Shown: positions 9,375 to 63,810 of the stretch, piece by piece
Layout of the letters: every line of letters starts with the position of its first letter
Numbering within the stretch: position 1 is the stretch's first letter
NCBI GenBank assembly: GCA_013360285.1
Contig: JABWCM010000001.1
Location: 11,328-75,327, forward strand
Length of the DNA: 64,000 nt
Source: Myxococcales bacterium
GTDB taxonomy: Bacteria > Myxococcota_A > UBA9042 > JABWCM01
Reading direction: 5' to 3'
The notes under the pieces: generated by a model
Told to the model about the DNA's origin: nothing
What the model saw: the letters and a program-made list of their open reading frames with translations, nothing else
Databases searched by the model: none
Translations under genes and position numbers: made by a program

Positions 9375-9950
9375 TGATGAAATAATTTATTTCGACCGTG
9401 AAATAATTTATTTCGACCGTGAAATAATTTATTTAGCATCAGAAATAATTTATTTAGCATCAGAAATAATTTATTTAGCATCAGAAATAATTTATAATTC
9501 TAAAAAATTATTTATTTATTGTATGAAACAAATTATTTCAATACATAAATAATTTATATTGAGTGTTAAAATATTTATTTTAATGTAAAATAATTATTCT
9601 GGCAATTGAAAAATATTATTTCATGTGCCAGATAAATTATTTTGAGTGTAACGAAAATTATATTTTGAAAAAATAAATTACTTTATGCACGAAATAATTT
9701 ATTTCACATTGAAGATAATTTATTTTATACACGAAATAAATTATTTAGATGAAAAATAAATAATATGATGATCGAAAATAATAATTTGAGATTAAGAATA
9801 AATGATTTTGAATATAAAATAATTTATTTTGATTTGTCAAAAATAATAATTTGTATGGAATAAATTATTTCGACCGTGAAATAAATTATTTCACATGCAA
9901 AAAAAATTATTTCGGTCGTGAAAAAAATTATTTTGAATCACGAATACAGT
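9375..9950. repeat. AT-rich array of ~27 degenerate direct repeats with ~21-bp period; core AAATAATTTATTT (near-palindromic) plus a variable 6-8-bp GC-containing tail
   Basis: Read directly: gaaataatttatttcgaccgt x2, gaaataatttatttagcatca x3, then more than 20 degenerate copies; terminal units again carry cgaccgt/cggtcgt tails. About 20% GC versus about 60% in the flanks. Confidence 0.9.
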
Positions 9951-10942
9951 CTCAATTTTCGCCACAGCGTATTGCGGGCTATACCCAGTTTGTCTGCCGC
10001 CATCGCTTGATTTCCTTGGCACAGATCCATGACACGTAAAATGTGTCGCCGTTCCATTTCCGCCAATGTCCACGTTTCCTGCTGATCGGTTGCCGATAAT
10101 TCTTCGGCACGGAATCGATTTTGATTTTGGCGTAATTCTTCGGGTAAATCCCGTGCTTCGATCCACAATCCGGTGGCCAACGCGGCACCATGACGTACGG
10201 CGTTTTGTAATTCCCGCACATTGCCGGGCCAGGCATAGTTTTGTAATTGTTGTTGTGCTTCGTTGGAAAAATCCTGGGCGACCACGGCTTCTTCCGCAAG
10301 AAAGGTTCGTGCCAACGGCAACACATCTTCTTTCCGGTCCCGAAGCGGCGGCATCGTCAACGTCAACACTTTCAGCCGAAAATACAGATCTTGCCGAAAT
10401 TTTCCTTCCCGGACCAGTTCGGCCAGATCCCGGTGGGTCGCACACACAATCCGCAAATCCACAGCAAATGTTTGGTTTTCGCCAACACGACGGATCTCCC
10501 CGTCCTGTAACGCACGTAATAGTTTGGCTTGTATGGGCAACGCCATTTCCCCAATTTCGTCAAGAAACAACGTGCCGGATGCCGCTTCTTCCATGAGCCC
10601 GCGCCGGCTGGAAGCGGCTCCCGTAAACGCGCCTTTTCCGTGGCCGAACAACTCCGACTCCAGCAGTTCCGTAGGCAATGCGGCAACATTGATCGCGACA
10701 AACGGTTGATTGGCCCGTCGGCTGTTTTGATGGATCAGCCGCGCGATGACTTCTTTTCCGGTTCCGGTTTCTCCATAAATCACCACCGGGGCTAGGCTTA
10801 CAGCAAATCGAGCCGCCCGTTTGCATACTTCCTGCATGACCGGTGACATAGACACTACAAAAGCCGACTTCGTCCATCGCGATACCACCGGTGCCATTCC
10901 ACATACATCACAAGTTGGTTTGTTCTGTTCCATGTGTTCCAT
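9938..10942 (-). CDS. Sigma-54-dependent transcriptional activator (bacterial enhancer-binding protein) consisting only of the AAA+ sigma-54 interaction domain and a C-terminal Fis-type HTH; no N-terminal sensory domain
   Basis: Motifs VVIYGETGTGKEV (Walker A), ESELFGHGKGAFTGA (GAFTGA sigma-54 contact loop), LFLDEIGEM (Walker B), C-terminal HTH ..AADKLGIARNTLWRKLRLYS. Only ~30 aa precede the AAA domain and include CDVCG; an alternative start would be Met31. Confidence 0.85.
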   Translation of the reverse strand: MEHMEQNKPTCDVCGMAPVVSRWTKSAFVVSMSPVMQEVCKRAARFAVSLAPVVIYGETGTGKEVIARLIHQNSRRANQPFVAINVAALPTELLESELFGHGKGAFTGAASSRRGLMEEAASGTLFLDEIGEMALPIQAKLLRALQDGEIRRVGENQTFAVDLRIVCATHRDLAELVREGKFRQDLYFRLKVLTLTMPPLRDRKEDVLPLARTFLAEEAVVAQDFSNEAQQQLQNYAWPGNVRELQNAVRHGAALATGLWIEARDLPEELRQNQNRFRAEELSATDQQETWTLAEMERRHILRVMDLCQGNQAMAADKLGIARNTLWRKLRLYS

Positions 10943-11067
10943 TGTGGAACACCATCATGGAACAGTCAATCGAAATGGTGTTACCAAACCCAAGGGTGGT
11001 GTCGTTTCAACATGGCATTCAAATTGCTTTACCTTTGGAAAACCCGGGGGAAATAAAGGATATGTCT

Positions 11068-11760
11068 ATGATTTCGACCCAAAAAACCATCGCCGAATGG
11101 GTGTTGGACCATTCGGAATGTGCTTCGGTTTTTCAAAGGCACCACATCGATTTTTGCTGCCGTGGGCATCTGACCGTCGATGAAGCCTGTGACCAAAAAG
11201 GATTGAATCCAAAAACCATATTGGAGGACTTAAACCGGGCCATCGCCGAACGGCAGGGCGGCCCATCGGTCGATTACCGCACCCTGAGCACAGTTGCCCT
11301 GATCGCCCATATCATTCAGACACATCATGAATATTTACGAAAAACACTGCCGTTTCTGCGGCCTTTGGCTTCCAAAGTGGCCCGGGTTCATGGCGATACG
11401 AATGCCAACCTGCATGAATTGGAACTCATCGTCTTTGAACTTGTGGAAACCTTACTTCCCCATCTGGATGCTGAAGAACAAGAATTGTTCCCTCTGCTGA
11501 TGACCAAAAACCCGGACAAAAGCCTGGTCGACAGCCAATTTACGCTGATGGCCGAGGATCATTTGTTGGTGGGGGAATTGTTGGCCCGGATGCGTAAAAC
11601 AACCAACCAATTTCGGCTTCCGCAGGCAGCATGTAATAGTTACCGAACCTTGTTTTCCGAACTCGAACAACTGGAAGGCGATATTCTTCGCCATGTGCAC
11701 CTCGAAAATCATGTGCTGATGCCGCGGTTTGTGTCGACAAGTACGCCATTGTCACATTAG
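11068..11760 (+). CDS. ric: Iron-sulfur cluster repair di-iron protein (RIC/YtfE/ScdA family: ScdA_N plus hemerythrin-like domain)
   Basis: AAAGGA RBS 7 nt before ATG 11068 (six-frame ORF 10891..11760 has a spurious N-terminal extension). HHIDFCCRGHLTVDEAC matches the YtfE N-terminal Cys motif. The C-terminal His/Glu-rich hemerythrin-like region is present. Confidence 0.8.
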   Translation: MISTQKTIAEWVLDHSECASVFQRHHIDFCCRGHLTVDEACDQKGLNPKTILEDLNRAIAERQGGPSVDYRTLSTVALIAHIIQTHHEYLRKTLPFLRPLASKVARVHGDTNANLHELELIVFELVETLLPHLDAEEQELFPLLMTKNPDKSLVDSQFTLMAEDHLLVGELLARMRKTTNQFRLPQAACNSYRTLFSELEQLEGDILRHVHLENHVLMPRFVSTSTPLSH

Positions 11761-11771
11761 GAGCTTAAACA

Positions 11772-12347
11772 ATGGAACTCATTGAAGTATTGATGAAGGA
11801 ACACCGGAAAATTGAAAATGTGCTGGATGAATTTCATGTGTGGGTCGACCGCATGATCGAAGAAAATGGGGACGCGCGGGAACAGCTTGGGCGTTTTGTG
11901 AAGTTTATTGTTGAGTTTGCCGACGGTTGGCACCACGGAAAAGAAGAAGACATCCTGTTCAAAACCATGGTGGAACATGGATTTCCTTCGCAGTTTGGTC
12001 CGATCGGTGTCATGATGCAGGAGCACGCTCAAGGCAGGGAATACGTGGCGCAATTACAACGGTTTGTCCAGCAAAACAGCCCGTGGGATGTCTCGGCGAG
12101 ACAACAGGTTGCCAAATTTGCCCTCTCGTATATCGATCTGCTGCGTAATCACATCCAAAAAGAAGATCAGATCTTGTACCCGATGGCTCAGGCACGCCTT
12201 CCTCAGGCCGCGATGGCCTTTATGCAGACACGATTGGAGGTTTTTGAAGGGGGACCCGGCAGAAACGAAGAACGGAATCGGGTTTGGCAACTGGGCCGGG
12301 ACCTAACGGAAAACTCGTGTTGTGGCTGCGGAGCCGAACACGACTAA
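11772..12347 (+). CDS. Hemerythrin HHE cation-binding domain protein
   Basis: 191-aa ORF with dispersed His/Glu ligand pattern (HRKIENVLDE..WHHGKEEDILF..MMQEHAQGREY..HIQKEDQILYP) typical of hemerythrin-like four-helix bundles. Directly follows ric. Confidence 0.7.
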   Translation: MELIEVLMKEHRKIENVLDEFHVWVDRMIEENGDAREQLGRFVKFIVEFADGWHHGKEEDILFKTMVEHGFPSQFGPIGVMMQEHAQGREYVAQLQRFVQQNSPWDVSARQQVAKFALSYIDLLRNHIQKEDQILYPMAQARLPQAAMAFMQTRLEVFEGGPGRNEERNRVWQLGRDLTENSCCGCGAEHD

Positions 12348-12350
12348 CCA

Positions 12351-14594
12351 TCACCACCGGAAAACTTCCAATAAGTCCGAATAATCATCGGTCCAGGGGC
12401 GGAATCTTTCGCGGCTAATCAACGGTGTCCACAAGGCGTTGCCCGCGAGTGCGCCGAAATCTTCGGGAGTGCGGGTCAAGATGGCCCAGCCGGATTTGTA
12501 TTTGGCGAGCCGTAAATCTTCGCTGGTTAACTCCCCAAAATCACGCCGGGCCAATGACACAAGACCCAACTGATAAGATACCGCTGCCAGTACCGGTTCC
12601 AGGTCCAGATACCAATTGGTGGTGTGAAAAGCAATCAACCCATGGGGTTTGAGTTTTCGCAAATACAATTCGATGGCTTCCCGGGTGATCAGATGTACCG
12701 GAATGGCGTCGGATCCGAACGCATCCAGCATGATCAGGTCAAATTGAGCGTCAGGAACGTTTTGCATGGTGATGCGGGCATCACCTGTGACCACGTCGAC
12801 TTTGCCGCGGCTGTCGGTGATGTAGGTAAATAACTTTGGATCCTGGGCGATACGGACCACTGCCGGGTCGAGTTCAAAAAATGTAAAGTGGGTGTTTTCT
12901 GCGGCATAAGTCGCCACCGTGCCGGCGCCTAAACCAACCAATGCCGCGTGTTGAAACTGGGGGCGAGACAACATTTCGGAAAAGATATCGCCGGCGGGGC
13001 CACTCCGAAAATAATAGGTAGTCGGCGCCAAACTCCACGGGGGTTGATCGTATTGCATTCCGTGTAATGTACGACCATGCCACAATTCGTGCCAATGGCC
13101 GCTGCCCGATTTTTTTTGCTGAACTTTGTAAATCCCAAAAAATGTCCGTTCAGCATAAAGTAAAGTACGGTCATCGGCATGATGCACGGAAGGCAACAGC
13201 GGCATAAGCAACTGATCGACGCCGGCAGCAATAGGCGCCAATACAAACAACACCAAACCGGCCAAATATTGAATTCGGCGAGACTGGACCAATCGTCGAT
13301 TGGTCTGGTTGGGGGATTTTTTGGGAAGGCGTAACGCACCTAGGCGCAAACCGCCAAAAAAACAACACAGCGCAATGGCGATGGTATATTCCGTGAGGTT
13401 GACAAAAATCTGCGGCGCAACAACGGTGTTAAAAACACCACCCAATGCTCCGCCGATAGATAAAAACAAATAAAATTCGGTTAGTCGGTCTGCTTTGGGG
13501 CGGCGTGCCCACAATCGACCGTGGCAGGCCATACATCCGGACCACAACAACACCAGGTGCGCGGCGCTGATCCATCCCATGGGACTGGGTGTTTCGGACC
13601 AGATCAACCATCCGACAATCGCCGACAACGGCGCAACCAACATTGCGCTAAATAAACTGACCACTCGGGACACGGCGCTGAAAGCAACAATAAAGGTCAA
13701 AAGATAAATGGCCAGCGGCACGGTCCAAAACATGGGAACAGGTGCGATGTTGGAGGTCAGGTGATGGGTTGTGCCCAGCATGAGTGTCGACGGTACAAAA
13801 GAAAATACCAACCAGGAGAACCGTTGAACCCATCGGTTGGATAGCGTGGGCTCTTCGACAACCGTCGGGGTTTCACCATTGGTTGGCATCACTGTCGCGG
13901 GGTATCGCAGGGCCAATACGCCACAAGTTAACGCCAATATCGCAAACACGAGACCCATCCAGGTCCAGCCGATGGTTTGAGAAGACATGGGCCACAGCGG
14001 TTCGATGACCACCGGGTATCCCACCAGGGCTAAGAGGCTTCCGATATTGCTGGCGATGTAAATACCATATGGATTGCCGGATCCGGGTAGGCGGGAACGG
14101 GCGAACCAGAATTGAAGCAACGGTGACGCCATCGACAGCACAAAAAACGGCAGGCCAATCCCCATCGCCGCAAACTGAATAGTTCGAATCGCCGGTGAAT
14201 CAACTGCATCGGGCAGTGTTTCGGGAAGGCCGATTGGCAGCGTAAGGGCGGCCGCACCCAACAGCAAGATGTACAATCCTAGCTGAATGACCGGCTTGTT
14301 AATCAACGACACCAGATGTGCACACAAATAACCGGCCAGCAACACGGTCTGAAAAAACAGCATACACGAGGTCCACACGGCGGGACCGCCTCCCAGATGC
14401 GGCAAAATCAATTTACCCACCATGGGTTGCGCAACAAATAACAACGATGCGGAGCACAACGTCGCTGCAGCAAAAATCAACCAACCATGTACCGGTGCTT
14501 CAGAGCGTATCGACAATTTCGGATTCGTCCTTAGAGGGTGTTTAGATACCGCTTCGATAAAACAAATCGAAATACCAGCGGTCGCGGATCTCAT
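12351..14594 (-). CDS. Polytopic membrane protein fused to a C-terminal spermidine-synthase-like (aminopropyltransferase/class I MTase fold) domain
   Basis: N-terminal ~480 aa are multi-TM hydrophobic. C-terminal LIMLDAFGSDAIPVHLITREAIELYLRKLKPHGLIAFHT resembles SpeE family. The six-frame ORF extends to 14627 and would overlap the upstream RNB gene by 86 nt; true start is probably internal (Met at 14594 or GTG at 14492). Confidence 0.65.
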   Translation of the reverse strand: MRSATAGISICFIEAVSKHPLRTNPKLSIRSEAPVHGWLIFAAATLCSASLLFVAQPMVGKLILPHLGGGPAVWTSCMLFFQTVLLAGYLCAHLVSLINKPVIQLGLYILLLGAAALTLPIGLPETLPDAVDSPAIRTIQFAAMGIGLPFFVLSMASPLLQFWFARSRLPGSGNPYGIYIASNIGSLLALVGYPVVIEPLWPMSSQTIGWTWMGLVFAILALTCGVLALRYPATVMPTNGETPTVVEEPTLSNRWVQRFSWLVFSFVPSTLMLGTTHHLTSNIAPVPMFWTVPLAIYLLTFIVAFSAVSRVVSLFSAMLVAPLSAIVGWLIWSETPSPMGWISAAHLVLLWSGCMACHGRLWARRPKADRLTEFYLFLSIGGALGGVFNTVVAPQIFVNLTEYTIAIALCCFFGGLRLGALRLPKKSPNQTNRRLVQSRRIQYLAGLVLFVLAPIAAGVDQLLMPLLPSVHHADDRTLLYAERTFFGIYKVQQKKSGSGHWHELWHGRTLHGMQYDQPPWSLAPTTYYFRSGPAGDIFSEMLSRPQFQHAALVGLGAGTVATYAAENTHFTFFELDPAVVRIAQDPKLFTYITDSRGKVDVVTGDARITMQNVPDAQFDLIMLDAFGSDAIPVHLITREAIELYLRKLKPHGLIAFHTTNWYLDLEPVLAAVSYQLGLVSLARRDFGELTSEDLRLAKYKSGWAILTRTPEDFGALAGNALWTPLISRERFRPWTDDYSDLLEVFRW

Positions 14595-16164
14595 TGTGTC
14601 CACGTACCCGTACATCCAACGCGGCACCCACGCGGATTCGTTTTCCTTCGACGAGGCGCATGACAGCCCCTCCTTTGAAAAGTTGTGGGTTGGGTCCCAG
14701 GTCGTCGTGATATATTTTTAGTTCAATCGGCGGGGAATCAAGTTGTAAATATACGCGGTTTGGCCGCAACTCCATGATCGTGCCTTGGCGAATCGGACGA
14801 TGGCTCAGCGGCGTGTTCAAATCGTCGGCAAACAGTCGATCGATGACCAACTTGTTTGCGGCTTTTGTCAACCGGCGTTGGGTTTCTTTGGCGCGGTTGG
14901 CGACATCGATCATTTCTTCAAGCAATTCCTGGGCCACGGATTCGGGCCAGTAGCGGTAACCTACGGATGCCAGCGCCACGGCATGGGTGTGAATTCCAAC
15001 CATCTCCCGCATGGGTGCGGTAAGTCGGGCGTAAAGCGGGGCACCGATTCCACTGTGTCCGCCAGGCGCAGAAGAAAATCCCGATCGGACGTTCGAGACC
15101 ATAGCAGCACGTTCAATAACCCTGCGGATCCGTGAGTCGATTTGTTCGTTTGAAATCTTCTCCAAATAATCCGCCAATGGTTCGCCGCGACTGTCACCGG
15201 GGGTTTTGCGGCGATGCCAACGCCATCGCGAGGGGTCGAGACGATGTTCGGACACGATACCGGCAATCAATCGTTCCAGTTGAGCAAGACGAGCTTCGGG
15301 CGGGTTTGGATGAACACGCCATGCAGCTTGAGCGCCAAGTGCCGCGATATACCGCGCGCCTTCGACGTTACACAACAGGGAGATGTGCTCATTGTACACC
15401 TCCACTTCAAATCGTTGGTCCTTTACCAGGTTAAAACCATAACCGGTTTCCCCAACAGCAACCCGGACGTTGGACCGTTGATAGATCACTACATCGCGTT
15501 GCCGTGCTTCGGCTAATCGAAGGCGTCCTAATTCGCGCAGCAGAACAAGGCTTTCGGTAAATGGTTTGTTGGAGAGATCGCTGATTTGGGGTGTGTCGTA
15601 AAAAATCTGTACCTGTTCAAAGGTCAACGCGGCGTGGCTGAAGATTACTGCGGGGGTAATCGATGTCTTAATGCAGTGTCCCAGGGCGTTGACAACCAAC
15701 GTGAATACAACGGCGCGGCGTTCCACTTGTGGATTGAGCGAGATGATGCCTTCGGACAACTCGCGTGGCAGCATCGGTACCGATAGACCCGGAAGATAAT
15801 AACTGGCACCTCTGTTTTTGGCCTCGCGAAACAACGCCATACCGGGGCGAATGTAATATGACGCGTCGGCGATGGCGTACAACACACGATACCCCCCCTG
15901 AAATCGGTCGATAAACAACGCTTGGTCCAAATCGCGTGAACCTTCCCCGTCGATGGTGGTAAACGGAATCGAACGTAAATCGACCAGTCCGCTTTCGGTT
16001 CGCCCCGCGTCACGGACGATTTGTTCGATTTCCGGCACTACGTCTGGAGGCCAGGCAAGTTCCAGCGCAAACTCGGTTACAATACGCTCCATTTCCTGCG
16101 CAGCGGTCTCCAGTTTATTGGTATTTGTGATCAACGGGTTCATCTCTGACTCCGACTTCGGCAC
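14542..16164 (-). CDS. RNB-domain 3'-5' exoribonuclease (RNase II/R family)
   Basis: Catalytic motif TIDGEGSRDLDQALF (RNase II DxxxxDDA-type Asp cluster) and overall 540-aa length. Confidence 0.8.
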   Translation of the reverse strand: MPKSESEMNPLITNTNKLETAAQEMERIVTEFALELAWPPDVVPEIEQIVRDAGRTESGLVDLRSIPFTTIDGEGSRDLDQALFIDRFQGGYRVLYAIADASYYIRPGMALFREAKNRGASYYLPGLSVPMLPRELSEGIISLNPQVERRAVVFTLVVNALGHCIKTSITPAVIFSHAALTFEQVQIFYDTPQISDLSNKPFTESLVLLRELGRLRLAEARQRDVVIYQRSNVRVAVGETGYGFNLVKDQRFEVEVYNEHISLLCNVEGARYIAALGAQAAWRVHPNPPEARLAQLERLIAGIVSEHRLDPSRWRWHRRKTPGDSRGEPLADYLEKISNEQIDSRIRRVIERAAMVSNVRSGFSSAPGGHSGIGAPLYARLTAPMREMVGIHTHAVALASVGYRYWPESVAQELLEEMIDVANRAKETQRRLTKAANKLVIDRLFADDLNTPLSHRPIRQGTIMELRPNRVYLQLDSPPIELKIYHDDLGPNPQLFKGGAVMRLVEGKRIRVGAALDVRVRGHNEIRDRWYFDLFYRSGI

Positions 16165-16324
16165 GTCCTATTTGGCACGGCGTCGGTTGTAGCAGAGAAC
16201 TGAGTTTCCGTCGATAGGTTTGGGTTCGTTATCTGAGTGAAATGCCCCCTTGATTTCGGTTTGAGTTGCCTGATAGGTTCGTCGCTGAACAGGTTGATCG
16301 GTGCTAAACCAGATAACTTAATAA

Positions 16325-17448
<1,124 letters not shown>

Positions 17449-17449
<1 letters not shown>

Positions 17450-18294
17450 TGGCGAATGTCACTGTGTTGTCTCAGCATGTCTGTTTTGGGGGGCGGCAGT
17501 TGTTTGTGGGTCACGAGTCGTTTTCGTGTAATGCTCCGATGCGGTTTTCGATATATTTGCCGCCGGCATCCGACCTGGGACGGGTGCCGGCGGTGATGTG
17601 TTTGGCGGGGTTGACCTGTACCGAAGAGACGTTTGCGACCAAAGCCGGTGCCCAACGATGGGCGGCAGAATGTGGATTGGCGTTGATTATGCCGGATACC
17701 TCTCCACGAGGCCTCAATTTGCCGGGAGACAGTGACCATTGGGATTTTGGAGTGGGTGCCGGTTTTTACGTAGATGCTACCGAGCCGCCGTGGTCGCAAC
17801 ATTATCGCATGTATCGATATGTGACCCAGGAACTGGTCGATTTGGTCGCCGCGGAATTTCCAATTCGTAAAGAAAAGTTAGGAATTTTGGGGCATTCAAT
17901 GGGAGGCCACGGCGCGTTGGTTTGTGGGCTTCGGAATCCCGACGTGTTTCAGTCGATTTCGGCGTTTGCACCGGTTGTGGCTCCGATGGTTTGTCCGTGG
18001 GGGCAAAAAGCATTTTCCCATTATCTGGGAAAGGAACGAGAAAGTTGGCGGCATTGGGATGCTTGCGAACTGGTGCGATCGGGAATTTCCACAAATGCGG
18101 AAATCTTGGTGGATGTCGGACTTGCGGACAAGTTTTTGACGACTCAGTTGATGCCGGAAAAATTGGAAGAGGTATGCGCCCGGTCTGGACAATCACTGAA
18201 GCTGAGACGGCATGCGGGTTATGACCACAGCTATTATTTTATTACGACCTTTGTTGAGGATCACCTTCGACATCACGCCAGATATTTAACTTAA
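17449..18294 (+). CDS. fghA: S-formylglutathione hydrolase (esterase D family)
   Basis: Serine-hydrolase nucleophile motif GHSMGGHGAL and full-length similarity to FrmB/YeiG. Operon partner of frmA. Confidence 0.9.
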
Positions 18295-19046: not shown

Positions 19047-22000
19047 TGGCCAACGTTCATAAGCGATTCGCGGCCTTTGTTTCACTCTGGGTCGGTGTTT
19101 TTGTCTTTGGGGTGTCGTCTCTGGCTTACGCCGTATGTTTGACACCTCCGGGCAATATTGGAGGTGAGCCGGTCACCAACATTGTCGACGTTCAATGTTC
19201 GATCTTGATGAATCTGTGGTCGTTGGGTGGCCAGGTATCGCCGGTACCGACCTGTATTACGACCCCGGGATCGCCGTCGATTATTGCCGATCACAATTGC
19301 GACGGCGTGATCAACGTCGGCGATACGCTGTTGGCGATTAATTTTGCGTTAAGCATTATTTTGGAACCGATTATCGACGCCAACGGCAATCAATGTGTCG
19401 ATGCGTGCGAAGCCGATTCCGATGGCGACGGAACGACCGATTTATTGGATTGTGCGCCCAATAATCCCGACATTTCGGCGGCAAGTGAAGAGTTGTGTAA
19501 CGGTTGGGACGACAACTGTAATGGAATCGTCGACGATGCCGTTTTGCCTTCTGTTGCGGCGTCCTGCAGTGACAACACGGTCTGTACCGGCATCGAGACC
19601 TGCGGGGCACTTTTGCCGAATCTCGGTATCGTGATTACCGAAATCATGGTTCAACCGACAAAGGTGCCCGAAGCGGTCGGTGAATGGTTTGAGATCTACA
19701 ATGGCGGCACGACGGCGATCAACATTACCGGATGGACTATTTCCAATGCGTTGGGACAAACCCACACGATTGTTCCCGGTGGATCGTTGTTTGTACCGCC
19801 GGCGGGTTATTTGGTTTTAGGCGCCAACGCCAACTTCGCTCAAAACGGCGGCGCGCGGGTTGCTTATGCATATTTGGGGTTGACCCTAGATAATGGTGGC
19901 GGCTCGTTGGTGCTCAAAAACAAAGATGGTGTGGAAATGGATCGGGTGGATTACGGAGCCGCCAAAGGAATCGGTGTGGTTCCGGGAGCGTCGTTGTCGT
20001 TACTCCGCCCGGATTTGAACAATAATGTAGCTTCGTCCTGGACGAAATCGACTTTGCCGTTTGGTGCCGGGGACTTGGGAACACCGTGGTCACCCAATAT
20101 AGATGTCATGCCGTCGTTTTGCCAAGCGGGTAGTCCATTGAATTGTGTCGATGGCAACGGCTGTACCGACGATAGCTGTGATCCCGTGGGTGGTTGTGTT
20201 TATGTGGCCAATACCGCGGTGTGCGACGATGGCAATGCCTGCACAACTACGGATGGGTGTATCAATGGTGTTTGTGTGGGTGGCCCGGCACTTAATTGTG
20301 ATGATGCCAACGGTTGTACCGATGACTCCTGTGATTCGGCAACCGGTTGCGTAAACGTCGACAACACTGCGGCATGCGACGACGGCACGGCATGTACCGA
20401 CGGCGATGTGTGTCAAGACGGCGCTTGTGTATCCGGGCCGTTGCTCGACTGCGATGACGCCAATCCGTGTACTGACGATAGCTGTGATGCCGCCCAGGGA
20501 TGTGTGAACGCACCCAATACGGTTATTTGCGATGACGGCAATGCCTGTACAACTGCGGATGGGTGTATCAATGGTGTTTGTGTGGGTGGCCCGGCACTGG
20601 ATTGTGATGACGCCAACGGTTGTACCGATGATTCCTGTGATTTGGCAACAGGATGTGTAAACGTCAACAACACGGCTGTATGTGACGATGGCACAGGATG
20701 TACTGCCGGCGATGTATGCCAGGATGGTGACTGTGTTTCCGGACCGTTGCTCGATTGCGATGACGCCAACCCGTGCACCAACGATGGCTGCGATGCCGCC
20801 TTGGGATGTGTTCATACGCCCAACACGAATGCCTGCGACGACGGCAACACCTGCACAACCACCGATGGTTGTAGCAACAACGTTTGTGTGGGGGGGCCTC
20901 CACTCGATTGTGATGACGCCAACAGTTGTACCGATGATTCCTGTGATTCGACAACTGGATGTATCCAAACACCCAACCTTGCCGCCTGCGATGACGGGAA
21001 TCAGTGTACCGTGGGAGATGTCTGTGGAGGCGGTATCTGTCATTCGGGCTCCCCCCTCAATTGTAATGACGGCGATGAATGTACTGTCGACAGTTGTTTG
21101 CCCGAGTCCGGGTGTTTGTTTGTTCCGGCGCCCGGTTGTGAACTGGAGGGCAACGCCATTTGTTTGATTTCCGGACCTGCGGGAACCAAAGTGCTTTGTC
21201 CACTGAAGTTATCGCGAGCGACGATGGCCATGCCGCCGGCCACCAGTGTTCAGTTTCGGCTTGTATGGGATACAACGGCGGTCAATCCGCTTGGATTAAC
21301 CGACACGATCTGCACCGGTCCTGGGGGCACACCGCCCTGTTCGTCGGTGGGTATCCCCCCGGCTACTTTGGATCCAACCGGGCATTCGGTATTTCCCATT
21401 CCTGAAGATTTTGCCGCAGCCAATGGTGGATCGATCGTGTTTGTATTGCCGTTAAGTGAACCGACCACGCCTATCACCACGGCATATCAGTTTGTTGGGT
21501 CACCGGTGGGTAATCCGGAATTTCTGACTTTTGAAATCGAAAGCCTGGTCGATATTCCCGCATCGGCGCCCCTTGCAGTCGAAGTGTTTGATATTATAGG
21601 GGCGACCGCCACCGTAGCCCCGATGGTCGGCGGAATGCAAAACGGTGTCATGGTGATGGAACTGGTCAATTGTTCGCTGGATCCGTCTGTGTGTACCGAT
21701 GGCAGTATTTGTACTACCGACGGCTGTGATCCGGCGACGCACCAGTGTGTGTGGGTAGATGCTTTGGCCTGTAACGACGGGGATATGTGTAACGGCATCG
21801 AAAGTTGTGATCCAACCAATGGTTGCGAGCCCGGGAACACCCCCGATTGTGATGATGGGGTCGAATGCACTCAGGACACGTGTGATCCGGCTGTTGGATG
21901 CAAAAACGTAAACAACGACGCCGGTTGCGACGACGGCAAAAACTGCACCTTGGATGTATGTGACCCGGTTGAGGGATGTCAAAACCCCGTTGACGTGTCG

Positions 22001-30898: not shown

Positions 30899-31979
30899 TT
30901 AGTCGATGTCGGTACAAACCAACTTGATGGCTTGAATACAATTTCCGGAAACAAACGAGAAGGTTCCCGTCGACCCGTCAAAACTCGTCAATCCACCCGA
31001 GCAACCTGCCGGTCCCGCTTGAATGTCGACAACATCGTGGAATTTGTGGGGATAGGAATCCGATCCGGTATAAAGATTGACGGCTGCCACAAACCTTCGC
31101 CCGGTCCAATGGGCTTCGTTGTTGGTGCGCAGCACGCAGTCATATACCCCGTGTGGAAGACCACCGATTCGAGCGTTATCAAAAATCGTCCGTAAACTAT
31201 AACTTCCGTCGGTTGACGTGTTCCAAATCGTGGTTTTCGGGTTGCCGCCCATGGGCCCCTGAGGTCCTTGCGGTCCCGTCGCTCCGGTGGCCCCAGTGAG
31301 TCCGGTTGGTCCGGTTGGTCCGGTTGGTCCGGTTGGCCCTGCCGGTCCCTGCGGCCCGGTCGCCCCAATCGGTCCTTGTGGTCCCGTCGCTCCGACTGCT
31401 CCCGTTGCTCCCGTTGCTCCCGCGGGTCCTGTAGGTCCGGCTGGTCCCTGCGGCCCGACCAGGCCGGAAGGAGATCCGACCCAGTTTCCGGACGCATCAA
31501 TCACCGCGATCTCGCCTACCTGGATCGCTCCAACGCTGATATTTCCGTTTGCGTCTTGTTGGACAAAACCATCGGGTCCAATCCCTCCAAGTTGATCACT
31601 ATTGCGCGCCAACACCGCAAAGGGTACCGACAACACTTGTTGTCGTGGCCCCAACACTTCGCCGGCAATGGTAAATTGCAGATACAGTTGGTCGGATGAC
31701 CACAGCGTGGTTTCCAGACCATCGGGGTCCACCGCACCCAGAACGACATCAAATCGTCCCTGGTTTACTTCCACCGTGCCGAGATTTTCACTCCAGGCGG
31801 CATTTCCGCCGGTTGGAACAACATATAGCTCCACTACAGCGCTGACGTTTCCGTCAAACGCCATGTTGTTGACGGTGCGTAATTCTCCAACATAAGACAA
31901 CGTGACCGGCGCTGCCGTTGCCGAGACCACCACCAAACAACTTCCCAACAAAATCAATGTTCGGATTAACCCGTTCATG
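30899..31979 (-). CDS. Secreted fibrous-protein family member C: conserved N-domain, about 30 collagen-like GXY triplets, unique C-terminal domain
   Basis: GGAAGGAG RBS before ATG 31979 (MNGLIRTL..; six-frame ORF extends to 32008). N-domain [65 protein letters not shown].. triplets. Lies directly downstream of the 3.3k-aa giant gene. Confidence 0.8.
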
Positions 31980-32106
31980 TTCCGGCTCCTTCCAAAGGGC
32001 ATCGCCACGGGCCAAGGTTGATCCTTTTCCCAAAAACGTTACGCCGTCTGTTCTGAACCTTACGGTACTTCCGTTGGGACCGGTGTGTCAATCGGCAACG
32101 ACGGGG

Positions 32107-47449: not shown

Positions 47450-48381
47450 TTAGTTGGTCACGAATGCACTGACGTAGCCGTATTCGTTGGAGTTCCAGTT
47501 TGGTGCGTTTGTGGCGCTGCTCTGGCCGCACATGCCGACCATGTACGTTCCGGCAGCAAGGTTGTTAATGATTCCGTTGATTCCAAACGTAATCCGGGTG
47601 TTTTGCGGAACTCGATTTCCCAAAATACCGCCGCCGATGCTTTGAATCGTGCTGCCCGGTGCGGTGGATTGATAACATATCCACAAATTGAGTTCCGCAG
47701 CACCTCCGGCCGCAGTTGAGCCCAGCGCTTTGTTTGCGATCACGATAATCTTTTGGCCGGCGGTGATGGAGACCGTCGGGGTTACCGAGATAAAGTCGAT
47801 CGACGGGGAGGCGTTACTCGGCACAGGATTTTTGCCGTAGCCGCTTGAAAATGCGGTTGCAACGATTCCGGACGGGCCTTGGGGTCCCTCGGGTCCGGTC
47901 GCGCCCGTGGCGCCGGTTGCCCCGGTTGCGCCGGTTGCCCCGGTATCGCCTTTGACACCTTGTGGTCCCATTGGTCCCATTGGTCCCATTGGTCCTTGTG
48001 GTCCGACAGGACCTGTGGGGCCTTGTAGTCCCTGCGGTCCCTGCGGTCCGGTGGGTCCCTGTATGCCCATCGTCACCGACATCGACGTGGTATAACGGGC
48101 TGATGGCGCGGTCTGGACAATCAACGAGTACGTGCCGGGGTCGGTCGTCGGCAGGTCGGCAATAATCATGGACGAATCAAAGGTGTCGAGCACCATCGTT
48201 GCACCGCCAAACAACACCGCCAAAGCACCACCGAAGTTGTTTCCGAAGATGATCAACTGACCGTTTGATAGGTCCACTTCCGCAGATGTAATCACCGGAG
48301 GGGGAGTGGCCGCAAAAGCCGCCGTAGTACTCAAAATAAGTGACGTAAAGATACCGCAAATCAATAATCTGACATTTTTCA
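47450..48381 (-). CDS. BclA-like collagen-like protein: signal peptide, IPT/TIG-like Ig domain, about 27 GXY triplets, C-terminal C1q/TNF-like jelly-roll domain
   Basis: RBS AGGAAAAAG before ATG 48381 ([24 protein letters not shown]; six-frame ORF starts 48451). [68 protein letters not shown]-terminal ~140-aa beta-rich domain ending ..[12 protein letters not shown]. Confidence 0.8.
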
Positions 48382-48647
48382 TGGCTTTTTCCTTTGGCAA
48401 AACGAACAACCGAGGGTGGATTGCGAATTGTCGGACCACGCGCGGGTTCAACTGGATTGGTCGTATCGCACTGGCGATCCAGATGCAACCGCGGAATTGT
48501 CATCGGTTCATTATTAACAAGAGGGTGTTTGGGAAAAAATTGCCGGTGAGCGAAACAGTGGTCGTAACGAGTCGGCCGGCCGACCGAGGCACGGCCGACG
48601 TAGTAGGCCAGTGTTTCGAGTAACGTAATTTTTTACCCAAACACCTT

Positions 48648-61734: not shown

Positions 61735-61952
61735 AATCGAACGGCAGCCTATGCCCTAAGCTTTCCGACAAGTCGGAACGGTTAGGGCAGCCTATGCCCT
61801 AAGCCTTAAGACAAGTCGGAACGGTTAGGGCAGCCTATGCCCTAAGCTTTCCGACAAGTCGGAACGGTTAGGGCAGCCTATGCCCTAAGCTTTACGGCAA
61901 GCCGGAACGGTTAGGGCAGCCTATGCCCTAAGCTTTCCGACAAGTCGAAACC
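61735..61952. repeat. Tandem array of five 43-bp direct repeats (plus one truncated copy); each contains an 8-bp-stem hairpin TTAGGGCA-gccta-TGCCCTAA
   Basis: Read directly: cggaacggttagggcagcctatgccctaagctttccgacaagt at 61774, 61817, 61860, 61903 with point variants, partial copies at both ends. No spacers between units. Confidence 0.85.
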
Positions 61953-62061: not shown

Positions 62062-62814
62062 ATGCAATATACAAGTCTGTACTGTCTAAAATCGGGAATT
62101 GTGGACATCATGTTGAAATATCCACAATGGGGAGTCCGAAAAGTGTGGGCACTGCTAAGGCAGCCGGCATACGGAATGCGGGTGAGCACCAGAAGGGTAT
62201 GGAAGTTGATGCGGGATCTGAGACAGGCTTTTCGTAATGATAACTCGGAGTCAAACCAAGCATCGAAAAGAGTAGTGGTCGACGATTCGAACCAACGGTG
62301 GGCGACCGACTTTACGAAAGTGTGGACCAAAGAAGATGGCCAGGTAACGATTGTCCCAACCATCGATTGTGGATGCAGAACATTGATGGCCGTGGAAGTA
62401 GTCAAAAGCCAAACGTCCGAATCGATTTTGGCGTCGGTAGATGCCGCATTGAAAAAAGAATTTGGCGATACAACCAACTTAAGACAGGCACTGGAACTGA
62501 GAACCGACCAAGGATCGCAGTATGTAAGCCAAACCTGTAAAGATTGGGCAGAAAAATGGAACCTGAACCATACGTTGGCAAAAAAAGGCACACCAACCGA
62601 AAATGCTGTAGTGGAACGTGTGATAAGAACCATGAAAGAAGAATGTATCTGGCCCAGAGACTGGAACAATGTCGAGGAGCTAAGGCAAGCACTCAACAAA
62701 TGGCATCAGGAATACAATGAAATACGTCCACATCAGGCACTTAATTGGAGCACCCCGAAACAACGCCGGGAAGAAAACCTGGCCAGAGCGCAAGGAGGGC
62801 ACAAAAAGATTTAA
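62062..62814 (+). mobile_element. IS3-family OrfB-type DDE transposase/integrase catalytic core (rve) without an orfA; probable IS remnant
   Basis: HTH_21-like N-terminus (..GVRKVWALLRQPAYGMRVSTRRVWKLMRDL), DDE residues in WATDFT, RTDQGSQY, TPTENAVVERV. Only ~110 bp upstream, too short for an OrfA. No terminal inverted repeats identified. Confidence 0.7.
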
Positions 62815-62860: not shown

Positions 62861-63810
62861 AGGCATGCGTTTCCTCATCGGCTAAAGTAGGCGTTAATCA
62901 ACTGCGACGTCCCCGGCAGTTGCGGTTGGCATGCGTTTCCTCATCGGCTAAAGTCCCAGCGCCACCGGAGTGCCTACCATGCAGTTGCGGTTGGCATGCG
63001 TTTCCTCATCGGCTAAAGTTCAAGGCCAACTGCACGGCAGCCTGGAAGAGTTGCGGTTGGCATGCGTTTCCTCATCGGCTAAAGTTAGACTAGGCGACAT
63101 TCGATCCGAACACTCGTTGCGGTTGGCATGCGTTTCCTCATCGGCTAAAGTTGCAACGACGCTGGATGCGACACCGGATTTGTTGCGGTTGGCATGCGTT
63201 TCCTCATCGGCTAAAGTGGATCAGCATTCGGGTTGCCGCGGCCATCAGTTGCGGTTGGCATGCGTTTCCTCATCGGCTAAAGTTGATGTGCGGCGTTCCC
63301 GCCACCCAAATCAGTTGCGGTTGGCATGCGTTTCCTCATCGGCTAAAGTACACCATTCAGGCGTGAACTCGATCCCCTTGTTGCGGTTGGCATGCGTTTC
63401 CTCATCGGCTAAAGTCGTGTTACGGTGGTGCGGCCTACGCCCTGCGTTGCGGTTGGCATGCGTTTCCTCATCGGCTAAAGTCTTGCCCCTGGCCGTCCGT
63501 CGGCTCTTCGGTTGCGGTTGGCATGCGTTTCCTCATCGGCTAAAGTTTTCGTGGCCGTCGAATGGTCACGGGCCGTGTTGCGGTTGGCATGCGTTTCCTC
63601 ATCGGCTAAAGTATGACCACGCTCCGTAGGTGGCAGACCGAGGTTGCGGTTGGCATGCGTTTCCTCATCGGCTAAAGTACACTATCGCTTTTCGGCTTCA
63701 ACCGCGCGGTTGCGGTTGGCATGCGTTTCCTCATCGGCTAAAGTATGGAAGCACGGAACCCCAGTGTTCCAGCAGTTGCGGTTGGCATGCGTTTCCTCAT
63801 CGGCTAAAGT
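62861..63810. CRISPR. CRISPR array: 14 full 36-bp repeats GTTGCGGTTGGCATGCGTTTCCTCATCGGCTAAAGT plus one 5'-truncated/degenerate repeat at the IS-proximal end; 14 unique 29-30-bp spacers; no cas genes in the window
   Basis: Exact repeat copies at about 66-bp period from 62919 to 63810. Spacers are unique and about 60% GC. The degenerate copy at 62861-62888 suggests the trailer end faces the transposase. AT-rich leader-like sequence lies at 63861-64000. Confidence 0.92.

What the first reader, a model, noticed from the sequence alone, without database searches (positions are those of the whole stretch)
9375..9950. About 580-bp AT-rich array of ~27 degenerate 21-bp direct repeats (iteron/centromere-like) embedded in about 60%-GC DNA
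The unit is a 13-bp near-palindromic AT core (AAATAATTTATTT) plus a 6-8-bp variable GC-containing tail. It repeats with a two-helical-turn period: gaaataatttatttcgaccgt x2 and gaaataatttatttagcatca x3 are exact, the rest degenerate. The same cgaccgt/cggtcgt tails recur at both ends. Regular phasing of a dimer-type binding site is characteristic of plasmid iterons, partition centromeres (parC/sopC-like) or dense nucleoid-protein/regulator binding arrays. Its size and GC contrast (about 20% vs 60%) are extreme for an intergenic region. It sits between the sensor-less sigma-54 activator and a small Lys-tailed helical protein that could be the cognate binder. No Rep, ParA or ParM gene is adjacent, so its role is open: a regulatory sponge, an enhancer array, a silenced xenogeneic remnant or a novel cis element.
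Basis: seen in the sequence. Interest (0 to 1): 0.75.

Follow-up and report, generated by a model that had tools for sequence, protein, structure and literature searches.

The report
Phased repeat array with partner protein
The 570-bp block of 27 AT-rich 21-bp repeats is real, and it is an extreme example of an apparently undescribed pairing: a small basic helical protein gene that is nearly always preceded by an array of lineage-specific palindromic sites spaced two DNA turns apart.

Summary
Window 9379..9945 contains 27 units with a mean spacing of 20.8 bp. Each unit is an AT-only 13-15-bp dyad (GAAATAA-W-TTATTTC) plus a 6-bp linker of ordinary composition. The array is 15-19% GC in DNA of about 54% GC, not 60%. 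It is not an artefact, because a sister genome has a 16-unit array at the same place and at the same distance from a conserved promoter. It is not the enhancer of the neighbouring sigma-54 activator. That activator's conserved partner is the divergent ScdA/RIC operon, with its own sigma-54 promoter and TGTTCCA/TGGAACA sites, and orthologous loci lack the array. The array goes with the 104-aa gene downstream of it. That protein belongs to an unannotated family of at least 1,168 clusters at 50% identity. In 9 of 10 family loci examined, the DNA upstream of the gene has a 21-bp periodicity built from 10-16 lineage-specific dyad motifs. Among 27 other intergenic gaps in the same loci, none shows this. 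The most likely reading is a cognate pair in which the basic coiled-coil protein binds its own two-turn-phased site array. Binding itself is inferred, not shown. No Rep, Par, DnaA-box, plasmid or phage link was found.

The parts
9379..9945 (.). Array of 27 units of about 21 bp (mean spacing 20.81). Each unit is a 15-bp dyad G-AAATAA-W-TTATTT-C/T with an AT-only inner 13-mer, followed by a 6-bp variable linker of about 40% GC.
9379..9483 (.). The recently homogenised, promoter-proximal end of the array: 2 exact copies of GAAATAATTTATTTCGACCGT followed by 3 exact copies of GAAATAATTTATTTAGCATCA.
9358..9378 (.). One further degenerate unit (TTTCTACGTTTATTTCTTGAT) in register, between the array and the promoter. 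The sister genome has a degenerate unit at the same place.
9291..9318 (-). Candidate sigma-70-type promoter of the 104-aa gene: TTGAAT (9318..9313), a 16-nt spacer, then CACAAT (9296..9291). Both hexamers are conserved in the sister genome. The nearest full array unit ends exactly 60 nt upstream of TTGAAT in both genomes, although the intervening sequence is not conserved.
   Evidence: alignment A3; read
9270..9283 (-). Conserved dyad GTGC-N6-GCAC just downstream of the -10 element. It may be an operator or a leader hairpin.
8879..9193 (-). Gene for a 104-aa basic protein (pI 9.8). The predicted structure has a short helix, one 54-residue helix, and a conserved C-terminal motif YGPDSTxYEQVGGTRASERKP followed by a Lys-rich tail. 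It belongs to an unannotated family.
8831..8854 (.). GC-rich hairpin between the convergent 104-aa gene and the 1296-aa gene. It looks like a terminator.

Best explanation
The array is the cis partner of the 104-aa gene that lies downstream of it on the minus strand. Together they form a stand-alone two-part chromosomal module found in several phyla. The module has 10-27 dyad-symmetric sites placed every 21 bp, which puts them all on one face of the helix, immediately upstream of the promoter of a gene for a basic protein of about 105-120 aa built around one long helix. The most likely mechanism has three steps. The protein dimerises through its long helix. Each dimer binds one dyad: the variable N-terminal half would read the lineage-specific outer bases, and the conserved Arg/Lys-rich C-terminal motif and tail would contact the backbone and the minor groove. 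Neighbouring dimers then touch along the array, giving a cooperative nucleoprotein filament that ends next to the gene's own promoter. That filament would at least feed back on the protein's own synthesis, and it may have a structural role on the chromosome. The window's array is the longest and most AT-rich version seen. Four things are shown: the anatomy of the array, its conservation in place and phase, its independence from the bEBP, and the family-wide association with 21-bp periodic dyad arrays. Three things are inferred: that this protein is the binder, that it dimerises and forms a filament, and what the complex is for.
For: (1) Selection acts on the core and not on the linker. Core columns are 81-99% conserved and 3% GC, while linker columns are near random and 40% GC.
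(2) The sister genome L006 (protein 83% identical) has 16-17 units with a mean spacing of 20.94 bp at the same position. Its proximal unit AAATAAWTTATTTCA is conserved and lies 60 nt upstream of the conserved -35 with no indel.
(3) Two strains of that sister species differ by 0.6% in the flanks and by 0 of 521 positions in the promoter plus gene. In the array they differ by 18% (62 of 340) with no indel, the same 16 units and the same 510-bp length. The frame is conserved while unit sequences are exchanged.
(4) bEBP orthologues at 63-67% identity keep the ScdA partner but have neither the array nor the small gene.
(5) Upstream of family members at 31-45% identity from Anaerolineales, Acidobacteriota and others, lag 21 ranks first or second in base autocorrelation in 9 of 10 loci, with z21 of 3.8-12.4. 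When lag 21 is second, lag 42 or 41 is first. Among 27 other intergenic gaps of the same loci, none reaches z21 >= 3.
(6) The units there are lineage-specific dyads: TGCCA-N7-TGGCA, CGTTATAG-A-CTATAACG, TTGAGA-N5/6-TCTCAA and CGTCAT/ATGACG.
(7) No other gene is conserved next to the family.
(8) The protein is basic (pI 9.7-10.5 in 9 of 10 members), with invariant Arg residues and K/R/P/T-rich tails, and is predicted to have a 54-residue helix at pLDDT 89.
Against: No recognised DNA-binding fold or domain was found. Pfam, NCBIfam, PHROGs and PADLOC give nothing. The PDB fold search has no hit at E <= 0.001, and the PDB sequence search gives only coiled-coil noise. Binding is purely inferred from co-occurrence. 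One family locus (L215, with only 195 bp upstream) shows no periodicity. Dyad symmetry in several distant arrays is modest, at 0.31-0.47 complementary over 7-bp arms. The part of the protein that is conserved is the C-terminus, so the assumption that the variable N-terminal half reads the DNA is untested. Ten to 27 sites is far more than autoregulation needs, so the purpose of the complex is unknown. The transcription start is predicted, not mapped, so the array could still be transcribed.
Confidence: 0.5

Rival explanations
1. The array is a multi-site operator for some other host protein, such as a nucleoid-associated protein or a regulator encoded elsewhere. That protein controls the small gene, and the small protein does not bind the array.
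For: The small protein has no recognisable DNA-binding domain. AT-only cores, as in the window, are typical targets of minor-groove-reading nucleoid proteins. The array lies upstream of a conserved promoter.
Against: The dyad motif differs completely between lineages while the only gene conserved next to it is the small gene. A global factor would be expected to keep its motif. AT-richness is not conserved across the family.
Confidence: 0.17
2. The module works at the RNA level. The array is transcribed as a repetitive leader or a separate RNA that the small protein binds or processes. This would resemble the tandem-repeat antitoxin RNA upstream of type III toxin genes, or a protein-sponge RNA.
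For: The architecture of repeat array followed by a small protein gene, with lineage-specific repeat units, resembles ToxIN-type loci (established knowledge). The arrays fold better than shuffles as RNA, with z from -4.3 to -5.3. G-T mismatches at dyad positions slightly outnumber A-C mismatches on the sense strand, 77 against 54 summed over six arrays.
Against: The period is 20.6-21.0 bp in every lineage whatever the motif. That equals two turns of B-DNA and has no meaning for RNA. The 7-1-7 and 8-1-8 palindromes cannot close as hairpins in full. The predicted folds pair different units with each other, not a conserved local hairpin. Only 31-47% of dyad positions are complementary in the distant arrays. 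In the window and its sister genome, conserved -35 and -10 elements lie between the array and the gene, and there is no terminator on the gene strand. There is no match to ToxN, AbiE or other defence models. The units are degenerate, unlike type III antitoxin repeats.
Confidence: 0.12
3. The array is a neutral minisatellite or an AT-rich remnant of foreign DNA that happens to lie in this intergenic region.
For: Tandem arrays keep their period through slippage and unequal exchange without selection. The five exact copies at one end show recent duplication. The array evolves about 30 times faster than its flanks between strains.
Against: The core stays AT-only and conserved while the linker is randomised. 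Position, phase relative to the promoter and total length are conserved between species and strains without any indel. Unrelated lineages carry arrays of the same period upstream of the same gene family. In 1.18 Mb of control loci no comparable block was found.
Confidence: 0.05
4. The array is an upstream enhancer, or a titration sponge, for the adjacent sensor-less sigma-54 activator.
For: The array starts at the stop codon of the bEBP gene. bEBPs bind dyad sites through a Fis-type HTH. Myxobacterial bEBPs use 3-5 tandem palindromes (PMC12754779).
Against: There is no sigma-54 promoter between the array and the small gene. The bEBP's conserved partner is the divergent ScdA/hemerythrin operon. 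That operon has a conserved TGGCAT-N5-TTGC promoter at 11013-11027 and TGTTCCA/TGGAACA half-sites, which are also present at orthologues. The recognition helix IARNTLWRKLR is essentially invariant (one Asn/Thr position varies) in orthologues with and without the array. Orthologous loci lack the array.
Confidence: 0.02
5. The array is an iteron origin or a partition centromere of a plasmid or an integrated element.
For: A period of 21-22 bp, direct tandem units, lineage-specific sequence and a position upstream of a small gene are all typical of iterons and of parC-, parH- and tubC-type centromeres (established knowledge).
Against: No Rep, ParA, ParM, TubZ, relaxase or integrase gene lies within 10 kb. 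DnaA boxes are not enriched and none lies near the array. The window carries chromosomal housekeeping genes. The family has no hit in 72,556 plasmids, 50,697 phages or IMG/VR.
Confidence: 0.04
6. The array acts through DNA mechanics alone, as an intrinsically curved or easily melted upstream element that tunes the promoter through supercoiling.
For: It is the least stable duplex in the window, at 15-19% GC over 570 bp. Its phasing at 20.8 bp equals two helical turns.
Against: Arrays of the same family in other lineages are 44-52% GC, so easy melting cannot be the shared property.
Confidence: 0.05

Closest known systems
Plasmid partition centromeres with small adaptor proteins (parC-ParR of R1, parH-ParG of TP228, tubC-TubR)
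   Same: Phased tandem repeats lie directly upstream of, and next to the promoter of, the gene for the small protein expected to bind them. Binding is cooperative along one face of the helix. Site and protein specificity co-evolve rapidly.
   Different: No partner NTPase gene is present. The locus is chromosomal and the family is absent from plasmid collections. Units are 21-bp dyads, not 11-bp direct iterons or 4-bp boxes. The protein is predicted to be one long helix, not a ribbon-helix-helix or winged helix. Segregation function is untested.
Iterons of theta-replicating plasmids (R6K 7 x 22 bp, RK2, P1, pSC101)
   Same: A period of 21-23 bp (two helical turns), direct tandem arrangement, a lineage-specific core with a variable spacer, and an array next to the gene of the presumed binder.
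   Different: There is no Rep initiator, no DnaA boxes and no separate unwinding element. The arrays have 10-27 units. The units are palindromic. The context is chromosomal.
ARG boxes bound by ArgR/AhrC
   Same: AT-rich palindromes of 15-18 bp repeated at a 21-bp centre-to-centre distance, so that successive sites face the same side of the helix.
   Different: ARG operators have two boxes, not 27. The TGAAT/ATTCA half-sites are not present as the repeated motif. No ArgR-like protein is involved.
Polymerising repressor arrays (Fur on hexamer repeats, omega on heptad arrays, MetJ on metboxes)
   Same: Many adjacent short sites allow a small dimeric protein to spread cooperatively over an extended operator.
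   Different: Those sites are contiguous at 6-8-bp steps and number 2-10. Here the step is two full turns, with a non-conserved linker.
Type III toxin-antitoxin loci (ToxIN, CptIN)
   Same: A tandem repeat array lies immediately upstream of a small protein gene, with repeat sequence specific to each lineage.
   Different: Type III repeats are 34-45 nt, nearly identical and act as RNA, with a terminator before the toxin gene. Here the units are 21 bp, degenerate and dyad-symmetric. Promoter-like elements lie between array and gene, and the protein matches no toxin model.

Membership tests
Iteron-type replication origin | A gene for a Rep initiator next to the iterons | tested here: not met
   Pfam, NCBIfam and PHROGs scans of all large ORFs from 193 to 18294 find an AAA ATPase, CIS13-like proteins, a bEBP, ScdA, hemerythrin, a methyltransferase-like protein, RNB, ADH and an esterase. 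No Rep was found.
Iteron-type replication origin | DnaA boxes and a separate AT-rich unwinding element beside the iterons | tested here: not met
   TTATCCACA with up to 1 mismatch gives 11 matches against 12.8 expected. The nearest is at 8474, inside a gene.
Iteron-type replication origin | Direct repeats of 17-22 bp at a spacing of about 22 bp | tested here: met
   27 units with a mean spacing of 20.81 bp.
Plasmid or phage partition centromere | An adjacent ParA, ParM or TubZ NTPase gene in one operon with the centromere-binding protein | tested here: not met
   No such gene occurs in the window neighbourhood or in any of the 10 family loci.
Plasmid or phage partition centromere | Location on a plasmid or prophage | tested here: not met
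   The window carries housekeeping genes. tblastn of a family member finds nothing in the plasmid or phage collections, and nothing in IMG/VR.
Plasmid or phage partition centromere | Repeats bound by the small protein encoded next to them | not testable with these tools
   Only co-occurrence across lineages is available. EMSA or ChIP is needed.
bEBP upstream activating sequence | A sigma-54 promoter (GG-N10-GC) downstream of the sites | tested here: not met
   No TGGCAC-N5-TTGC match with up to 2 mismatches lies between 8280 and 10299. The real sigma-54 promoter is at 11013-11027, on the other side of the bEBP gene.
bEBP upstream activating sequence | Sites that co-occur with the bEBP in orthologous loci | tested here: not met
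   Orthologues in L090, L091 and L010 keep the TGTTCCA/TGGAACA sites and ScdA but have no array.
Type III toxin-antitoxin | A ToxN-, AbiQ- or CptN-type endoribonuclease encoded after the repeats | tested here: not met
   No PADLOC, Pfam or NCBIfam match. The predicted fold is one long helix.
Type III toxin-antitoxin | Near-identical repeats of 34-45 nt, transcribed, with a terminator before the protein gene | tested here: not met
   The units are 21 bp and degenerate. No terminator lies on the gene strand, and promoter-like elements lie between array and gene. Transcription itself was not measured.
CRISPR array | Conserved repeats of 23-50 bp separated by unique spacers of similar length | tested here: not met
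   The conserved part is 13-15 bp and the variable part 6-8 bp. A genuine CRISPR array elsewhere in the window looks quite different.
Intrinsically curved upstream DNA | Predicted curvature above that of composition-matched DNA | tested here: not met
   Both wedge models give less bending than shuffles.
Known RNA families (Rfam 15) | A match at the gathering score | tested here: not met
   No match in the window. Nothing relevant was found on eight related loci at E <= 0.1.

The most novel reading that the evidence does not exclude
A widespread, so far unrecognised stand-alone chromosomal module. A family of basic coiled-coil proteins of about 115 aa (at least 1,168 clusters at 50% identity, in Acidobacteriota, Chloroflexota, Myxococcota and others) would assemble on its own upstream array of 10-27 lineage-specific dyad sites spaced exactly two helical turns apart. 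The result would be a dedicated nucleoprotein superstructure acting as a self-encoded chromosomal landmark, for example an anchoring or centromere-like site, a replication or transcription roadblock, or a topological barrier, and not merely an autoregulated promoter. The array sequence diversifies quickly by in-register unit exchange while its frame is held fixed.
Probability: 0.3. Interest if true: 0.9.

Novelty: new variant of a known kind. Interest (0 to 1): 0.78.

Why it matters
If the small protein binds its own array, this is a new family of sequence-specific DNA-binding proteins with no recognisable DNA-binding domain. Each member comes with a ready-made set of 10-27 natural binding sites beside its gene. 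That would allow protein-DNA recognition rules to be read directly from more than a thousand co-evolving pairs. It would also add a chromosomal, NTPase-less counterpart to plasmid iterons and centromeres in phyla whose chromosome biology is almost unknown, such as Acidobacteriota, Chloroflexota and uncultured Myxococcota. The strain comparison shows an unusual evolutionary regime: 18% substitutions and no indels, against 0.6% in the flanks. The geometry appears to be selected while the unit sequences are shuffled. On a practical level, these arrays break short-read assemblies, and gene callers place spurious small ORFs on them, as in L221.

Tried and rejected
1. bEBP enhancer. I searched for a sigma-54 promoter upstream of the small gene and found none. 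The bEBP's conserved regulon lies on its other side.
2. Intrinsic curvature. Two wedge models were run in Python, and the array is predicted straighter than shuffles.
3. Coding repeat. 21 bp equals 7 codons, but no frame stays open across 7 of 8 arrays. The exception is L214, with a 94-codon open frame on the minus strand.
4. Structured RNA. There are no Rfam hits. The leader fold is not better than shuffles, z 0.83. Folds of the arrays are better than shuffles only through pairing between units.
5. DNA similarity to plasmids and phages gave only weak AT-rich chance hits.
6. The genome-contig scan with the bEBP saturated with generic bEBPs and did not return the source genome. It served only as a 1.1-Mb control set.
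7. The metagenome pattern scan (two cores 21 bp apart) saturated at 120 loci, almost all from AT-rich contigs. Two of them (L140, L142) carry a 4-5-unit array with the L006-type core but lack prokaryotic coding density. No long array in a GC-rich prokaryotic contig was found.
8. The viral pattern scan found two giant-virus MAG contigs with 3-5-unit arrays of the same core, in AT-rich DNA. I treat these as convergence.
9. A fold search of the protein model against the PDB gave no hit. A PDB profile search gave only Rad50 coiled-coil and similar noise.
10. I looked for a conserved neighbour gene among family loci and found none.
11. Literature searches found nothing that describes the module.
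Full report
**The observation**

Tandem Repeats Finder reports overlapping 20-21-bp arrays from 9379 to 9933. Written out in lines of 21 nt, the block stays in register from end to end. A Viterbi placement with an iteratively refined weight matrix gives 27 units. The spacing is 21 bp in 19 cases, 20 bp in 3, and 18, 19, 22 and 23 bp once each, for a mean of 20.81 bp.

The 13-mer AAATAATTTATTT with up to two mismatches occurs 44 times in the 64-kb window when both strands are counted. Of these, 43 lie in the array, against 1.75 expected. The exact copies (two CGACCGT units, three AGCATCA units) and the recurrence of the cgaccgt and cggtcgt tails at the far end are as stated.

Each unit is a 15-bp dyad, G-AAATAA-W-TTATTT-C/T. 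Its symmetry is sharply centred on the middle base, with 5.44 of 7 symmetric pairs against at most 3.9 at any other centre. The inner 13-mer is 3% GC and 81-99% conserved per column. The 6-nt linker is 40% GC and close to random.

One figure needs correcting. The surrounding DNA is about 52-56% GC (window mean 0.54), not 60%, and the array is 15-19% GC.

**Not an artefact**

The window comes from an NCBI MAG labelled Myxococcales bacterium (locus tag HUU55_00070 for the small protein). Five independent short-read contigs carry the same small gene and all stop at the edge of the array. The longest runs 47 nt into it with identical sequence. That is what a k-mer assembler does at exact tandem copies.

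A sister species has the same gene order: RNB, a 730-aa protein, hemerythrin, ScdA, bEBP, AT-rich array, small gene. Its small protein is 83% identical and its bEBP 80% identical. It was assembled through the array in four samples. Its array has 16-17 units with a mean spacing of 20.94 bp, a 42-bp super-period and a shifted core, GAAAATA-A-TATTTTC.

**Context**

On the minus strand the order is as follows:

- bEBP gene at 9938..10942
- the array
- about 185 bp of ordinary-composition DNA
- the 104-aa gene at 8879..9193
- a hairpin at 8831-8854
- the convergent 1296-aa gene

The bEBP has Sigma54_activat, AAA_lid_14 and HTH_8 domains and only about 30 residues ahead of the AAA+ domain.

The genes to the left are an AAA ATPase with a winged-helix domain and two proteins with weak CIS13-like N-termini. 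They look like the tail end of a contractile-injection-system cluster. The rest of the window carries ordinary chromosomal genes: carbamoyltransferase, BshC, a solute symporter and a SNF2 helicase.

No Rep, Par, relaxase or integrase gene lies near the array. DnaA boxes are at chance level, with none nearby.

**The array does not belong to the bEBP**

No sigma-54 promoter lies between the array and the small gene. A good one, TGGCATTCAAATTGC at 11013-11027, lies on the other side of the bEBP gene, in front of the divergent ScdA/RIC-hemerythrin operon. It is conserved in the sister genome as TGGCATGACAATTGC.

Around the bEBP start codon there are TGTTCCA/TGGAACA half-sites. The same half-sites, a sigma-54 promoter and a divergent ScdA gene recur at orthologues of 66-67% identity (L090, L091). 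The HTH recognition helix IARNTLWRKLR is essentially invariant (one Asn/Thr position varies) across these proteins.

Those orthologous loci have neither an AT-rich block, nor 21-bp periodicity downstream of the bEBP, nor the small gene. For comparison, the characterised myxobacterial bEBP PexR uses three to five GC-rich interrupted palindromes (PMC12754779).

**The array is tied to the small gene's promoter**

I aligned the upstream regions of the window and the sister genome. The conserved blocks are CTTGAATA, TGCACAATA (a TTGAAT-16-CACAAT promoter candidate), a GTGC-N6-GCAC dyad and the ribosome-binding site.

The promoter-proximal full unit, AAATAAWTTATTTCA, is conserved. In both genomes it ends exactly 60 nt upstream of TTGAAT without a single indel, although the 60 nt between them are not conserved. 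The phase of the array relative to the promoter is therefore maintained.

**The key result: a family-wide association**

A single-sequence search with the 104-aa protein found only ten relatives, none with any Pfam domain. They share a striking C-terminal motif, R-x-R-S-x(2)-R-G-x-Y-G-P-D-S-T-Q-Y-E-Q-x-G-G-T-R-A-S-E-R-K-P, followed by a K/R/P/T-rich tail.

A profile search found 969 clusters at 90% identity. An exhaustive HMMER search found 1,168 clusters at 50% identity with E <= 0.001, of which 431 have E <= 1e-10. Nearly all are stand-alone proteins of 110-125 aa. The named sources include Acidobacteriota (Pyrinomonadaceae, Blastocatellia) and Anaerolineales. None occurs in the plasmid, phage or IMG/VR collections.

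The DNA upstream of distant members (31-45% identity) is not AT-rich, and at first sight it holds no array. Base autocorrelation tells a different story. Lag 21 is the top lag in L214 (z 5.9), L008 (3.9) and L216 (3.8), with harmonics at 42 and 63 and nothing at 18 or 24. That pattern excludes codon periodicity.

I then fetched four more loci chosen only for contig length. Their upstream gaps are long (640, 704, 451 and 321 bp). Lag 21 gave z 6.9 in L217, 6.3 in L218 and 4.3 in L220. In L221 it gave 2.6, rising to 5.1 once the region under two small and probably spurious called ORFs is included.

Overall, lag 21 ranks first, or second behind 42 or 41, in 9 of 10 loci. These represent about 7 of 8 independent lineages. 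In 27 other intergenic gaps of the same loci, lag 21 is top once, at z 1.9, and never reaches z 3. In 4,505 mostly coding control windows, lag 21 is top with z >= 3.8 in 1.4%.

Written in register, the distant arrays consist of 10-16 units with lineage-specific dyads:

| Locus | Dyad motif |
|---|---|
| L217 | TGCCA-N7-TGGCA |
| L218 | CGTTATAG-A-CTATAACG |
| L216 / L220 | TTGAGA-N5/6-TCTCAA |
| L008 | CGTCAT / ATGACG |
| L214 | TTGATGCA |

No other gene is conserved beside the family. The only constant companion of the gene is a two-turn-phased array of its own kind of dyad. The window's array is the longest and most AT-rich instance.

**Evolutionary mode**

Two strains of the sister species (L006, L007) differ at 40 of 6,459 positions upstream and at 0 of 521 positions in the promoter plus small gene. 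Within the array they differ at 62 of 340 positions (18%). There is no indel, the unit count is the same 16, and the distance from stop codon to ribosome-binding site is the same 510 bp. The mismatches are concentrated in linker columns. Some units look exchanged in register; for example, unit 2 of L007 equals unit 6 of L006. The frame is held fixed while unit sequences turn over about 30 times faster than the flanks.

**The protein**

AlphaFold2 on the ten-sequence alignment gives pLDDT 89. The model has a short helix (residues 2-14), a loop, one 54-residue helix (27-80) and a short C-terminal element. By my own arithmetic, 54 helical residues at 1.5 A each give about 81 A, which is close to the 71 A of 21 bp of B-DNA.

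Nine of ten members tested have a pI of 9.7-10.5. No known fold or family matches. The protein therefore has the charge and shape one could expect of a dimeric DNA binder, but no recognised DNA-binding domain.

**Interpretation**

The best-supported explanation is a cognate pair. Dimers of the small protein would bind the dyads, all on one face of the helix, and form a cooperative filament that abuts the gene's own promoter. I put this at about 0.5, because binding is inferred only from co-occurrence.

The rivals, with my estimates:

- Another host factor binds the array: 0.17.
- The module acts at the RNA level, as in type III toxin-antitoxin loci or sponge RNAs: 0.12. The universal two-turn period, palindromes that cannot fully close as hairpins, low complementarity in the distant arrays and the promoter-like elements between array and gene all weaken this reading.
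- Neutral minisatellite: 0.05.
- DNA mechanics alone: 0.05. Wedge models predict less curvature than shuffles (parameters from memory), and the distant arrays are not AT-rich.
- Iteron origin or partition centromere: 0.04.
- bEBP enhancer: 0.02.

**Comparison with known systems**

In what it works like, the module is closest to plasmid centromere-adaptor pairs (parC-ParR, parH-ParG, tubC-TubR) and to iterons. Shared features are phased tandem sites next to the gene of the presumed binder, with fast co-evolution of specificity. In geometry it recalls ARG boxes, which are AT-rich palindromes 21 bp apart.

It fails the membership tests for all of these. There is no Rep, no partition NTPase, no DnaA boxes and no plasmid or phage location, and the predicted protein fold is different.

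I found no description of this family or module in the searchable literature or in Rfam. That library is incomplete, so prior description cannot be excluded.

**Verdict**

The feature is real and under selection. It is misattributed if linked to the bEBP. It is best described as a new variant of the class of tandem, helically phased binding-site arrays with a cognate small protein. Its interest lies less in this one array than in the family-wide rule it exposed.

Noticed in passing
window 62919-63810: A CRISPR array of 14 identical 36-bp repeats (GTTGCGGTTGGCATGCGTTTCCTCATCGGCTAAAGT) with unique spacers of 29-30 bp. A partial repeat lies at about 62866-62888. An ORF just upstream (62062..62814) reads like a transposase or integrase, but I did not scan it. 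No cas genes were examined in the window.
   Followed up: partly
window 61743-61951: A 43-bp tandem repeat of 4.9 copies at 92% identity (GGCAGCCTATGCCCTAAGCTTTCCGACAAGTCGGAACGGTTAG), lying just upstream of the transposase-like ORF and the CRISPR array. Its function is unknown.
   Followed up: no
window 9938-10942 and 10943-11062; also L006, L090, L091: A well-populated clade of sensor-less bEBPs of about 330-340 aa, mostly in Myxococcota. They have an invariant N-terminal CxxC (C-D/G-V-C-G). They are always divergent from a ScdA/RIC di-iron gene that has a sigma-54 promoter and TGTTCCA/TGGAACA half-sites overlapping the bEBP start. This suggests an NO, redox or iron-sulfur-damage regulator that may sense through the two cysteines.
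   Followed up: partly
window 193-8810: Four co-directional genes: an AAA ATPase with a winged-helix domain, a 392-aa protein of unknown function, and two proteins whose N-termini weakly match the CIS13 contractile-injection-system family (below the cut-off). They are probably the distal end of a CIS-like cluster that begins before the window.
   Followed up: partly
window 30899-32008, 47450-48451; repeats at 31283-31422 and 47895-48061: Two collagen-triple-helix-repeat proteins with 9-bp (Gly-X-Y) tandem repeats. Nearby are very large ORFs of 2243, 3349 and 1442 aa. One of these has 306-bp internal repeats at 20222-20962.
   Followed up: no
L092 5070-5130 and L093 11036-11130 (IMG/VR giant-virus MAG contigs): Short arrays of 3-5 units of 21 bp, TAAATAATTTATTT plus 7 nt, carrying the same 13-bp core as the window. 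They lie just after ORFs in very AT-rich DNA. This is probably convergence, but the identical core and period are curious.
   Followed up: partly
L006 vs L007, 6460-6799: Between two strains that differ by 0.6% in the flanks, the array differs by 18% with no indel and with units apparently swapped in register. This is a local hotspot of sequence exchange with a fixed frame.
   Followed up: yes
L221 2479-2679 and 2695-2862; L214 2489-2780 (minus strand): Gene callers place small ORFs of 55-66 aa on the periodic array in L221. In L214 the array is open for 94 codons on the minus strand. These are probably spurious, but a heptad-repeat micro-ORF cannot be excluded for L214.
   Followed up: partly
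L108 1615-1900, L204 679-830, L211 187-290 (metagenome contigs of about 40% GC): Short 21-bp tandem arrays of AT-rich units. Examples are AAAATATTATTTTTTTTGAGA in 3-4 copies next to three 21-bp GC-containing repeats, and ATAAATAATATATTTCAATCA in about 6 copies. They look like plasmid or phage origin regions.
   Followed up: no
window 9270-9283 and L006 about 6880-6893: A conserved GTGC-N6-GCAC dyad immediately downstream of the candidate -10 element of the small gene. It may be a second, different operator.
   Followed up: partly
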